This document shows positions 61,488 to 64,000 of a stretch of DNA of 64,000 nucleotides, one piece after another. The DNA is from Marmoricola sp. (GTDB taxonomy: Bacteria > Actinomycetota > Actinomycetes > Propionibacteriales > Nocardioidaceae): contig DASSOK010000042.1 in assembly GCA_035700665.1 (NCBI GenBank), forward strand, positions 6,115 through 70,114. The letters are read 5' to 3'. The translations under genes and the position numbers were made by a program. The notes under the pieces are model-generated. The model did not search any database. It was not told the DNA's origin and worked only from the letters and a program-made list of their open reading frames with translations. Position 1 is the stretch's first letter, and each line of letters begins with the position of its first letter.

Positions 61488-62039
61488 TCAGGAGTAGACG
61501 TGCGGCGCCAGCGTGCCGATGTCGCGCAGGTTGCGGTAGCGCTCCTTGTAGTCCAGGCCGTAGCCGACGACGAATTCATTGGGGATGTCCCAGCCGACGT
61601 ACTTGACGTCGACGTCCATCCGCTGCGCCTCCGGCTTGCGCAGCAGGGTGCAGATCTCGACGCTGGCGGGGTTGCGACTGGCGAGGTTGGACGTCAGCCA
61701 GGACAGCGTGAGCCCGGTGTCGATGATCTCGTCGACGATGATGACGTCGCGGTTGGTGATGTCGGTGTCGAGGTCCTTGAGGATCCGCACCACGCCGGAC
61801 GACTTCGTGCCGGAGCCGTAGGAGGAGATCGCCATCCAGTCCATCTCGAGGTGCCGGTGGAAGGCCCGGGCCAGGTCGGCCATCACCATCACGGCACCGC
61901 GGAGGATGCCGACGATCAGGACGTCCTTGCCCTCGTAGTCGACCTCGATGCGCTGCGCCAGCTCACCGAGCTTGTCCTGGATCTGCTGCTCGGTGAAGAG
62001 CACGTTGACGAGGTCGCCCTCGATGTCCGACGCGTCCAT
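61488..62039 (-). CDS. hpt: Hypoxanthine phosphoribosyltransferase
   Basis: IVDEIIDTGLTL PRPP motif, FVVGYGLDY. Confidence 0.97.
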   Translation of the reverse strand: MDASDIEGDLVNVLFTEQQIQDKLGELAQRIEVDYEGKDVLIVGILRGAVMVMADLARAFHRHLEMDWMAISSYGSGTKSSGVVRILKDLDTDITNRDVIIVDEIIDTGLTLSWLTSNLASRNPASVEICTLLRKPEAQRMDVDVKYVGWDIPNEFVVGYGLDYKERYRNLRDIGTLAPHVYS

Positions 62040-62104: not shown

Positions 62105-63145
62105 ATGCGCCTGTCCGTCCTCGACCTCGTCCCCGTCCGCAGCGACCAGTCCACCGGCGAGGCGCTGGCCGCCACCAGGGCCTTGGCGCGGGTCGCCGAT
62201 GACGCCGGCTACCACCGCTACTGGCTGGCCGAGCACCACAACATGCCGGCGGTCGCGGCGACCAACCCGCCGCTGCTGATCGCCATGGTCGCCGCAGCCA
62301 CCTCGCGACTGCGGGTCGGCTCCGGTGGGGTGATGCTGCCCAACCACGCGCCGCTGGTCGTCGCGGAGCAGTTCGCCCTGCTCGAGGCCGCCCACCCGGG
62401 CCGCATCGACCTCGGCATCGGCCGGGCGCCCGGCACCGACCCGGTCACCCGCTACGTCCTCCGCAACGGCGCGGTCTCGGCCGAGGAGGACCCGGTCGCG
62501 CACTTCCCCGCATACGTCGACCAGGTGATCGCCCTGATGAGCCCCGGTGGCGCCGGGATCTCCGTCGCCGGCCGGACCCACGCCCTCAACGCGACCCCCC
62601 ATGCCACCTCGGTGCCGCCGGTCTGGCTCCTCGGCTCCTCGGACTACTCCGCGACGCTGGCGGCCGCCCGCGGGCTGCCCTACGTCTTCGCCCACCACTT
62701 CTCCGGGAAGGGCACGGCCGAGGCGCTGGCCCTCTACCGCTCGCAGTTCCAGCCGTCGGAGCGGCAGCCCGAGCCGGCGACGTTCCTCACGGTGAACGCG
62801 GTGGTCGCGCGCACCCAGGAGGATGCGGAGCGGCTGGCACTTCCGCAGGTCCACGCGATGGTGGCGCTGCGCACCGGTGCCCCGCTCACCGCCCAGCAGC
62901 TGGTGGAGGAGGCCGAGAGCGCCCCGCTGCCGGCGGCGCACCAGCCGCTCGTCGACGGCATGCGGTCGCGCTGGGTGATCGGCACTCCGGCCAGTGCGGC
63001 GGCCCGGATCCGTGACCTCGCCGAGCAGTTCGGCGTCGACGAGGTGATGGTGCACCCGGTCGCCGGCGCACTGTCCGGCACCCCGGCCGACGCGTCGCCG
63101 GCGCGCGAGGGGACCTTGCGACTGCTGGCCGACCAGCTGCTCTGA
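62105..63145 (+). CDS. LLM-class flavin-dependent oxidoreductase (luciferase-like, YhbW-type)
   Basis: LSVLDLVP, WLAEHHN, GSGGVMLPNH, GRIDLGIGRAPG, WLLGSS. Confidence 0.92.
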   Translation: MRLSVLDLVPVRSDQSTGEALAATRALARVADDAGYHRYWLAEHHNMPAVAATNPPLLIAMVAAATSRLRVGSGGVMLPNHAPLVVAEQFALLEAAHPGRIDLGIGRAPGTDPVTRYVLRNGAVSAEEDPVAHFPAYVDQVIALMSPGGAGISVAGRTHALNATPHATSVPPVWLLGSSDYSATLAAARGLPYVFAHHFSGKGTAEALALYRSQFQPSERQPEPATFLTVNAVVARTQEDAERLALPQVHAMVALRTGAPLTAQQLVEEAESAPLPAAHQPLVDGMRSRWVIGTPASAAARIRDLAEQFGVDEVMVHPVAGALSGTPADASPAREGTLRLLADQLL

Positions 63146-63169
63146 TCCCGGTCCGGTCGCGCTCGCGGG

Positions 63170-63189
63170 TTCACAGGTGAACCTGTGAA
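63170..63189. repeat. Inverted repeat TTCACAGGT-GA-ACCTGTGAA
   Basis: Perfect 9-bp arms between the convergent LLM and tilS genes. Confidence 0.6.
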
Positions 63190-63273
63190 GCGCGCACTGC
63201 GCATACGTTGCAACGGCAGGTGAGTGACAGCATCTGCCGCGAGCTCACGGGCGTCGCGTCGTGCCGCCGACTC

Positions 63274-64000
63274 TCACCAGGCGTCGCCGGGCCGGTCGTG
63301 GCAGGCGATCGGCTGGGTCCGGTCCAGCTCCTCGGCGACCGGCAGGACCATCACGCCGTCGTCCTCCTCCGGCGTGCGCACCCGCGTCCCGGCCCTGATC
63401 ACGTACGACGGTCCCCGCCAGCGTTCCCACCCGAGGCGTTCGTAGAAGCCGTGCGCCGAGGTGGACAGCGCGCCGAGCTCGTAGTGCTCGCGCACGACCT
63501 CGGCGATCGCCGCCATGACCCTGCTGCCCAGGCCGCGTCGCTGGTGTCCCGGCCTGGTCGCGACCGCCTCGACGTAGCCGCCACGCAGTGACCTGTCGCC
63601 GACCACCAGCTCCCGGGGCACCACACTGGCGTGCGCCAGCAGCTCACCTGCCGGAGTGCGCACGATCGCGTGCGTGCCGCCGAACGCGTGCCCGGCGTCC
63701 TCGTCGGTGAAGCCGCCGGCGAACGCCGCGTCCCAGAGCTCCCGCAGCGCGGCCCGGGCGGAGGGGTCGAGCACGGTGGAGGCGACGAGGAGCAGCTCCG
63801 CGGAGGGCTCGAACCCGATCCGCCCGTCGCGCCGCACCGCGCGGAGGTGGCCCGGCAGGTCGATCCACTTCTGGCCGCGCCACGCGGTGACGAGCTCGTC
63901 GACCGCGACGACGTGCTCGTGGAACAGCTCGGCGGCGGGCGACCCCGCGGCGACCGCCGCCAGTCGCAGCACGCGCCGCCGGATCGCCTCGGGCAGCGCG
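63274..64000 (-). CDS. tilS: C-terminal part of tRNA(Ile)-lysidine synthetase TilS fused in frame to an AAC(2')-I-like GNAT acetyltransferase (5' end outside window)
   Basis: The frame is open to the window edge: ALPEAIRRRVLRLAA...HVVAVDELVTAWRGQKWIDLPG (TilS C-terminus, in the usual position upstream of hpt-ftsH). It then continues without a stop into AFAGGFTDEDAGHAFGG...GYVEAVAT...YELGALS...RTPEEDDGV...DRPGDAW. Confidence 0.8.
   Translation of the reverse strand, partial: ALPEAIRRRVLRLAAVAAGSPAAELFHEHVVAVDELVTAWRGQKWIDLPGHLRAVRRDGRIGFEPSAELLLVASTVLDPSARAALRELWDAAFAGGFTDEDAGHAFGGTHAIVRTPAGELLAHASVVPRELVVGDRSLRGGYVEAVATRPGHQRRGLGSRVMAAIAEVVREHYELGALSTSAHGFYERLGWERWRGPSYVIRAGTRVRTPEEDDGVMVLPVAEELDRTQPIACHDRPGDAW

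What the first reader, a model, noticed from the sequence alone, without database searches (positions are those of the whole stretch)
63274..64000. TilS fused in frame to a complete aminoglycoside 2'-N-acetyltransferase-like domain
Seen in sequence: one minus-strand frame runs from the window edge through a typical actinobacterial TilS C-terminus (LPEAIRRRVLR...WRGQKWIDLPG...RRDGRIGF) directly into about 175 further residues (about 63800-63274). There is no stop, and no ATG/GTG with an RBS, at the junction. Established knowledge: the added part follows mycobacterial AAC(2')-Ic motif by motif (AFAG-FT--D--H--GG-HA, RxGYVE-VA, Y-LGALS, GW--W-GP, RTP--D, D-R-GD-W). TilS normally ends at this point, next to hpt; the fusion I know of is TilS-HprT, not TilS-GNAT. 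Inference: an essential tRNA-modifying enzyme may be tethered to an acetyltransferase. This could guarantee expression of an intrinsic aminoglycoside-modifying activity, or point to a physiological substrate for AAC(2') enzymes linked to translation or lysine. It could also be a recent accidental fusion, formed when the aac and LLM genes entered between tilS and hpt.
Basis: partly seen in the sequence, partly recalled or inferred. Interest (0 to 1): 0.85.

Follow-up and report, generated by a model that had tools for sequence, protein, structure and literature searches.

The report
TilS fused to aminoglycoside acetyltransferase domain
In two sister lineages of Nocardioidaceae bacteria, the gene for the tRNA-modifying enzyme TilS runs without a stop into an aminoglycoside-acetyltransferase-like domain, likely an accidental joining of neighbouring genes whose two halves probably still work independently.

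Summary
The fusion is real. The frame stays open to the contig end. Full-length 498-aa copies with the PP-loop exist. Contigs from five soil DNA studies and one RNA library cross the junction without a stop or indel. A second lineage carries the same fusion (89% identical). The added domain folds like AAC(2') (TM 0.93) and keeps nearly all family-invariant residues. Substitutions between the two lineages avoid conserved columns (p about 1e-5), so it is under purifying selection. But it is rare. It is absent from 102 other genus genomes, 400 sampled family genomes and the top 150 hits among 1.84 billion cluster representatives, and it arose once on a short branch. The same domain hangs at the C-terminus of 12 unrelated partner families. 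The LLM gene sat beside tilS before aac arrived. Best reading: a passive fusion in which an inserted aac(2')-like gene borrowed tilS's expression signals; the halves likely act independently. A tRNA- or lysine-linked role is not excluded but has no support. No such fusion turned up in my paper searches or the scan's earlier notes. New variant, modest interest.

The parts
63274..64000 (-). In-window part of the fused tilS-aac ORF (frame 63999-63274, residues 258-498 of the 498-aa protein plus TGA). The ORF continues 476 nt past the window to the contig end, and the first 98 residues lie beyond it.
63805..63999 (-). C-terminal (CTD1, substrate-binding) part of TilS, residues 258-322; unfused relatives stop within a few residues of here
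   Evidence: PF09179; tails of unfused relatives
63799..63810 (-). Junction, residues 321-324 (E-P-S-A); resembles the tails of unfused TilS relatives (FEPIS, LEPAS); no stop and no aac start codon
63277..63798 (-). AAC(2')-like GNAT domain, residues 325-498, ending in the invariant Trp
63167..63226 (.). REP-like palindromic element (core hairpin 63170-63189) between the aac stop and the convergent LLM stop; also present in unfused G026 and on 8 other contigs of this genome
62105..63145 (+). Luciferase-like monooxygenase (LLM) gene, convergent; older at this site than aac
   Evidence: PF00296; present without aac in 11 of 19 relatives
61488..62039 (-). hpt (hypoxanthine phosphoribosyltransferase), a separate gene
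   Evidence: PF00156
59375..61441 (-). ftsH, followed by folE-folP-folB-folK: the usual context of tilS-hpt

Best explanation
A single 498-codon open frame joins a complete Type II TilS to an AAC(2')-like acetyltransferase domain in two sister lineages; it likely arose once by passive gene fusion, and the two halves likely work independently. Shown: the frame, its two domains, its presence in two lineages and absence from their relatives. Inferred history: a free-standing aac(2')-like gene, of a kind scattered through about 1 in 7 sampled Nocardioidaceae genomes, landed between tilS and the convergent LLM gene; the tilS stop and the aac start were then lost. Inferred function: the N-terminal part makes lysidine on tRNA-Ile2 as any TilS does. 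The C-terminal part uses acetyl-CoA to acetylate the 2'-amino group of aminoglycosides or a related amino-sugar, as free AAC(2') enzymes do, and is now expressed at tilS's housekeeping level. An N-terminal partner is tolerated because the domain's C-terminal Trp, part of the substrate site, stays free.
For: Single origin: the two fused TilS sequences form one clade (100/99), nested among unfused TilS at about 80% identity. Rarity: only G000 matches across both domains among 103 genus genomes. Of 401 sampled family genomes 55 have the domain, and G000 is the only one seen with it joined to TilS. Apart from G000's own two loci, none of 194 aac-bearing loci held tilS, hpt or ftsH in the DNA fetched. 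None of the top 150 representatives spans both domains. 2 of 52 long GNAT hits and 2 of 120 listed junction hits are TilS fusions. Promiscuous passenger: 14 of 20 long homologues scanned carry one of 12 unrelated N-terminal partner families, and 43 of 52 end in the AAC C-terminal motif. Both halves intact: TIGR02432 145.5 bits against a cut-off of 93.6; model pLDDT 87, matching AAC(2')-Ic at TM 0.93, rmsd 1.6 A, and Aquifex TilS at TM 0.83. GNAT under purifying selection: 1 of 37 columns at least 90% conserved differs between the lineages, against 21 of 72 columns under 50% (p about 1e-5). It is the only PF01171 match in the 85%-complete genome. No gain of basic charge: net -6 and -9 against a mean of -8.9 for 117 free homologues.
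Against: No activity was measured. The fused GNAT diverges 2.8 times as fast as its TilS, against 1.1-1.6 in seven comparably diverged pairs of one unfused clade (its three closest pairs gave 0.5, 0.6 and 3.5). That could mean relaxed constraint or adaptation to a new role. The acidic residue equivalent to AAC(2')-Id Asp54 is Gly and the adjacent conserved Trp is Ala, although the eight nearest free homologues also lack both. No precursor with a separate aac next to tilS was found, so the insertion-then-fusion order is inferred. The second lineage rests on one protein record without DNA. Protein-level evidence for a full-length product is absent.
Confidence: 0.66

Rival explanations
1. The GNAT domain is a slowly decaying passenger: folded and tolerated on TilS, with little remaining function.
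For: GNAT-to-TilS divergence ratio 2.8 against 1.1-1.6 in an unfused clade. Six family-conserved positions differ from consensus in each fused copy. The domain is dispensable in most relatives (54 of 400 family genomes have it).
Against: Substitutions avoid conserved columns (p 1e-4 and 1e-5). All 11 fused records (10 in one cluster, 1 in another) end in the full C-terminal motif, although an early stop would leave a normal-length TilS. Most of the deviations from consensus that were checked are shared with the nearest free homologues.
Confidence: 0.15
2. One frame, two products: an internal start or proteolysis at the junction gives separate TilS and AAC proteins, so the fusion exists mainly in the DNA.
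For: In-frame GTG and CTG codons lie near the junction. Mycobacterial aac(2')-Id is made from a leaderless GTG transcript (PMC6363676, passage read), so a missing Shine-Dalgarno sequence does not exclude an internal start.
Against: Neither GTG position is Val in the second lineage. A start at residue 333 would cut off the first predicted strand (325-330). The linker is about 3 residues between two predicted strands. TilS has no stop of its own, so the full-length chain must be made first.
Confidence: 0.1
3. Functional coupling: the GNAT sits where Type I TilS enzymes carry their acceptor-stem-binding CTD2, and acts on or with the TilS reaction (acetylating tRNA, lysine or TilS, or shielding the tRNA-enzyme complex from aminoglycosides).
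For: The domain follows CTD1 directly, as CTD2 does in Type I enzymes (PMC11947777, passages read). It is kept in two lineages under selection. Five TilS positions are shared by both fused copies and absent from 22 unfused ones. TmcA is a precedent for an acetyltransferase acting on the tRNA wobble base (PMC2500205, abstract in listing only).
Against: Single recent origin, with no recurrence and no aac found near tilS elsewhere. The domain keeps the acidic aminoglycoside pocket and a negative net charge. It fuses to 12 unrelated partner families. The five TilS positions are of the kind expected on a 0.15-substitution stem (inference).
Confidence: 0.08
4. Assembly or sequencing artefact joining two genes.
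For: The source is a fragmented metagenome-assembled genome and the gene lies at a contig end.
Against: Independent assemblies from five soil DNA studies carry the junction unchanged. Ten records form the cluster, and a second lineage at 89% identity has the same register.
Confidence: 0.01

Closest known systems
Type II TilS (tRNA-Ile2 lysidine synthetase; TIGR02432, PF01171 + PF09179; Aquifex aeolicus TilS, PDB 2e89/1wy5)
   Same: PP-loop, catalytic domain, CTD1 and no CTD2; predicted fold (TM 0.83); context upstream of hpt-ftsH-folE.
   Different: Carries an extra 174-residue acetyltransferase domain where relatives stop.
Aminoglycoside 2'-N-acetyltransferases AAC(2')-Ia to -Ie (PDB 1m44, 7crm, 6vr2)
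   Same: Predicted fold (TM 0.85-0.95), 39-41% identity to the mycobacterial enzymes, and the substrate-site Asp, Glu, Ser, Tyr, Asp and terminal Trp.
   Different: Fused to TilS rather than free. Lacks the Asp equivalent to AAC(2')-Id Asp54. Far below every named allele's cut-off (80-129 bits against 350-400). It belongs to the broad untested environmental family, whose nearest free members are 62-67% identical.
TilS-HprT fusion and TilS-HprT complex
   Same: TilS joined at its C-terminus to the product of a downstream gene. Two actinobacterial-type examples turned up here (P0269, P0213). In Bacillus subtilis the two proteins form a complex (PMC8152036, passages read).
   Different: The partner here is a GNAT, hpt stays separate, and the partner is a newcomer to the locus, not a conserved neighbour.
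TmcA (tRNA-Met cytidine acetyltransferase)
   Same: An acetyltransferase acting on the wobble base of a CAU-anticodon tRNA (abstract in listing; that this base is the position TilS modifies is recalled).
   Different: Its ATP-driven helicase-plus-GNAT build (recalled) is absent here. The domain matches AAC(2') by sequence and fold; no TmcA-type family hit it in Pfam or NCBIfam.

Membership tests
TilS (TIGR02432) | PP-loop SGGxDS in the same frame | tested here: met
   SGGADS at 32-37 of P0001 and P0002; beyond the contig end in G000 itself
TilS (TIGR02432) | Score above the curated cut-off | tested here: met
   145.5 and 147.5 bits against 93.6
TilS (TIGR02432) | CTD1 substrate-binding domain (PF09179) and TilS fold | tested here: met
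   42.3 bits against 21; TM 0.83 to 2e89
TilS Type I (PRK10660) | Second C-terminal domain CTD2 and the full-length model cut-off | tested here: not met
   109.9 bits against 606, match ends at residue 278; no CTD2 family in Pfam; hence Type II
TilS (TIGR02432) | Forms lysidine on tRNA-Ile2 C34 | not testable with these tools
   Needs an assay. Two CAU-anticodon tRNAs and 65 ATA codons in 62 of 1609 long ORFs are present
AAC(2')-I | AAC(2') GNAT fold | tested here: met
   Top Foldseek hit 1m44, TM 0.93, rmsd 1.6 A
AAC(2')-I | Substrate-site and catalytic residues (AAC(2')-Id Asp59, Ser141, Ser143, Tyr150, Asp177, Asp208, Trp210; AAC(2')-Ic Glu82) | tested here: met
   D358, S436, S438, Y443, E469 (conservative), D496, W498, E401 in both lineages (mapped, counted; residues named in PMC7725843 and PMC9571707)
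AAC(2')-I | Acidic residue equal to AAC(2')-Id Asp54 (binds the ring I 6'-amine) | tested here: not met
   G353 in both lineages; Asp in only 87 of 296 free homologues and 0 of the 8 nearest
AAC(2')-Ia/Ib/Ic/Id/Ie alleles | NCBIfam allele cut-off | tested here: not met
   80-129 bits against 350-400; not a named allele
AAC(2')-I | [quoted passage not shown] | not testable with these tools
   Needs an assay
AAC(2')-I | Homodimer involving the first strand | not tested
   Described for AAC(2')-Id (PMC7725843, parts 1-2 read); the first strand here abuts the junction
TilS-HprT fusion | C-terminal phosphoribosyltransferase domain in the TilS chain | tested here: not met
   No PF00156 in P0001; hpt is separate at 61488-62039
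TmcA | Helicase plus TmcA-type GNAT domain (recalled) | tested here: not met
   No such family among the Pfam or NCBIfam hits

The most novel reading that the evidence does not exclude
The AAC(2')-like domain has replaced the missing CTD2 of a Type II TilS and been recruited into tRNA-Ile2 maturation, acetylating the tRNA, lysine or TilS itself, or clearing aminoglycosides from the tRNA-enzyme complex. That would give the AAC(2') family a translation-linked physiological substrate.
Probability: 0.07. Interest if true: 0.8.

Novelty: new variant of a known kind. Interest (0 to 1): 0.33.

Why it matters
If the best reading holds, it is a clean, datable case of an accessory resistance-type gene being absorbed into a housekeeping protein whose orthologues are essential in E. 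coli and M. tuberculosis (PMC10531406, passages read). Annotation then hides it: the second lineage's record is named only 'tRNA(Ile)-lysidine synthase', so name-based resistome surveys would miss it. It also shows that Type II TilS likely tolerates a folded domain where Type I enzymes carry CTD2. It does not reveal a new pathway. It would matter much more if the acetyltransferase acted on tRNA, lysine or TilS, because the natural role of AAC(2') enzymes is still debated (peptidoglycan and mycothiol have been proposed; PMC6363676, passages read).

Tried and rejected
Looked for the missing N-terminus in G000's other contigs: none. Scanned metagenome and genome contigs with the junction and GNAT: 160 loci, none with tilS; the tool may leave out records very near the window's genome, so DNA for the second lineage was not obtained and dN/dS could not be computed. 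Searched for a free, closely similar aac: best 67% identity. Looked for a decayed aac downstream of tilS in 28 loci of relatives with a profile: best score 3.7 bits, nothing. Codon usage and GC3 of the GNAT part are typical of the genome (42nd and 50th percentile), so they do not date the insertion. A first alignment for folding (A3) misplaced the GNAT rows and was dropped in favour of A4. Complex prediction of the TilS part with the GNAT part returned no verdict (score 0.00). Two of three RNA-library runs had no listed piece across the junction, and a run with only contigs cannot show strand or level. A contig in run X4 joins 63066 to 63807, skipping aac; it has 13 differences in 125 bases and probably comes from an unfused relative. 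Paper searches for a TilS-acetyltransferase fusion ('TilS, fusion, acetyltransferase'; 'lysidine synthetase, fused, acetyltransferase'; 'lysidine, tRNA, GNAT'; 'lysidine, HprT, fusion') listed none by title or abstract; the first was swamped by the tumour-immunology term TILs, and the library lacks most subscription papers. The scan's earlier notes had nothing by sequence and nothing on TilS by words. The primary Providencia paper PMC179228 was not held.

Full report
Observation. The minus-strand frame 63999-63274 is open for 241 codons. Pfam places the TilS substrate-binding domain at its start and GNAT domains behind it. The window is part of contig C42 of an 85%-complete, 71% G+C assembly. 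The contig ends 476 nt past the window, and the frame is open to that end: 400 residues with typical TilS motifs. The PP-loop is not in this assembly. A search with the GNAT part among proteins of 220-700 residues returned P0001, a 498-residue protein identical to the window's product over the shared part, and P0002, also 498 residues. Both begin with a full TilS carrying SGGADS. P0001's cluster has 10 members: five 498-aa JGI records, four 472-aa Logan records and the window's own 400-aa fragment; P0002 stands alone. P0002 is 89% identical overall, 299 of 321 in TilS and 144 of 174 in the GNAT, with the same junction register.

Not an artefact. Twenty of 24 listed runs, from 8 studies, hold the stretch or part of it. 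I laid 8 of them, leaving out the run marked as a possible source. All four runs (four soil studies) have a contig across the junction with 1-2 substitutions and no gap. In one search one more DNA run and 1 of 3 RNA-library runs bridge it with no mismatch; the RNA contig is short and shallow and DNA can be in such a library, so it is only a hint of one transcript. The two in-frame GTG codons near the junction lack an upstream Shine-Dalgarno-like sequence and are not Val in P0002.

The two halves. The N-terminal part passes the TilS cut-off (TIGR02432, 145.5 against 93.6 bits) and is the only PF01171 match in the genome. It has CTD1 and no CTD2, which makes it Type II as defined in PMC11947777 (passages read). 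It lies upstream of hpt, ftsH and the fol genes. The genome has two CAU-anticodon tRNAs and uses ATA rarely: 65 codons in 62 of 1609 long ORFs. tilS is reported essential in M. tuberculosis and E. coli (PMC10531406 and PMC4721953, passages read); essentiality here is inferred. The C-terminal part matches all 7 solved AAC(2') sequences found, best AAC(2')-Ic at E 4.7e-33, but scores 80-129 bits against allele cut-offs of 350-400. The predicted model has pLDDT 87 and pTM 0.51; it matches 1m44 at TM 0.93, rmsd 1.6 A, and Aquifex TilS at TM 0.83. Mapping the substrate-site residues named for AAC(2')-Id (PMC7725843, parts 1-2 of 5 read) and AAC(2')-Ic (PMC9571707, passages read) gives D358, E401, S436, S438, Y443, E469, D496 and W498 kept in both lineages. 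The Asp54 equivalent is G353 and the neighbouring Trp is A359, but the eight nearest free homologues also lack both.

Distribution and history. Among 103 genomes of the genus, only G000 matches across both domains; 99 have some match. Among 401 sampled family genomes, 55 have the AAC(2')-like domain at E up to 1e-15; I read the loci of the best 30. Named relatives place the family as Nocardioidaceae (the family name is my inference from those labels). Of 196 aac-bearing loci held, only G000's own two contain tilS, hpt or ftsH, within flanks of 1.5-5 kb where available. Of the top 150 hits among 1.84 billion cluster representatives none spans both domains; the two among the 12 long ones scanned that carry an extra domain are TilS-HprT fusions. 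A junction search listed 120 of 188 hits, and only P0001 and P0002 are fused. In a TilS tree of 23 rows the two fused sequences form one clade (100/99) with a 0.15 stem and short tips (0.027, 0.049), beside unfused proteins at about 80% identity. Unfused relatives stop 19-31 residues after the start of the LPG motif, several with tails like the fusion's junction. The LLM gene lies convergent to tilS without aac in 11 of 19 close relatives (one of the 19 has too little flank to tell). G026 has tilS, a 516-nt gap, LLM and hpt, shares about 100 nt of the intergenic DNA next to LLM, and shows no aac remnant. So aac is the newcomer, and the fusion arose once. No free aac closer than 67% was found.

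Is the added domain selected? The 30 differences between the lineages fall on poorly conserved columns: mean conservation 0.42 against 0.60, p about 1e-5 over 296 free homologues. One of 37 columns at least 90% conserved differs, against 21 of 72 columns under 50% (the same result on 177 homologues). All 11 fused records end in the full C-terminal motif, although a stop after residue 322 would leave a normal-length TilS. Against this, the GNAT diverges 2.8 times as fast as TilS in the fused pair, compared with 1.1-1.6 in seven comparably diverged pairs of one unfused clade; its three closest pairs gave 0.5, 0.6 and 3.5, and the pairs are not independent. Constraint may be somewhat relaxed.

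Is there a link to TilS chemistry? I found none. The domain keeps its acidic pocket, and its net charge (-6, -9) is like that of 117 free homologues (mean -8.9), so it has not become a basic RNA-binding module. The aac gene was not found near tilS elsewhere. The same domain sits behind 12 unrelated partner families in 14 of 20 long homologues scanned, chosen from 50: TetR, dephospho-CoA kinase, FAD-binding, pentapeptide repeat, hydrolase and others. Many are single records and some may be errors. 43 of 52 long hits end in the AAC C-terminal motif, which fits a domain whose terminal Trp binds substrate (PMC7725843) and which therefore accepts partners at its N-terminus. Five TilS positions are specific to the fused pair, no more than a 0.15 stem would give (inference).

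Mechanism. Shown: one frame, two intact domains, two lineages, a single origin, purifying selection on the GNAT. Inferred: a free aac(2')-like gene inserted between tilS and LLM, next to a REP-like palindrome, and lost its start together with the tilS stop. The chain makes lysidine with its N-terminal part and acetylates aminoglycosides or a related amino-sugar with its C-terminal part, independently, at tilS's expression level. Mycobacterial AAC(2') enzymes give low-level resistance and have proposed roles in peptidoglycan and mycothiol metabolism (PMC6363676, passages read); the natural substrate here is unknown. I put this at 0.66, a decaying passenger at 0.15, two products from one frame at 0.10, functional coupling at 0.08 and artefact at 0.01.

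Novelty. Four paper searches (listings and abstracts only) showed no TilS-acetyltransferase fusion; PMC11947777 mentions TilS fusions above 600 residues in one passage. I did not open any supplements. The scan's earlier notes held nothing on this. The architecture appears undescribed, but both parts are known, the fusion is confined to two sister lineages, and the passenger domain fuses widely. Verdict: new variant of a known kind, interest 0.33.

Noticed in passing
window 63167-63226: A REP-like element of about 60 nt with a perfect core hairpin and a GTTGCAAC palindrome. Similar copies lie on 8 other contigs of this genome, often as inverted pairs, and in G026 at the same site with changes that keep most of the stem.
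   Followed up: partly
loci L003-L021, L182-L186 (downstream of tilS): The stretch between tilS and hpt is an insertion hot spot in this genus: the gap to hpt ranges from 38 to over 1300 nt, with LLM or other genes inserted.
   Followed up: partly
proteins P0005, P0012, P0013, P0023, P0024, P0033: A RimJ-type GNAT fused in front of an AAC(2')-like GNAT recurs in six clusters, more often than any other partner; this may be a conserved double acetyltransferase.
   Followed up: no
proteins P0269, P0213: TilS-HprT fusions whose TilS part is 53-54% identical to this actinobacterial-type TilS.
   Followed up: partly
window 63100-64000 in sequencing runs: Near-identical sequence occurs in both gill and soil metagenome runs of several studies, so the organism is either widespread or partly a carried-over contaminant.
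   Followed up: no
L221 (G088) and L222 (G069): The free aac(2')-like genes of two genus relatives lose the normal C-terminal motif in frame, probably by frameshift, while close relatives keep it.
   Followed up: no
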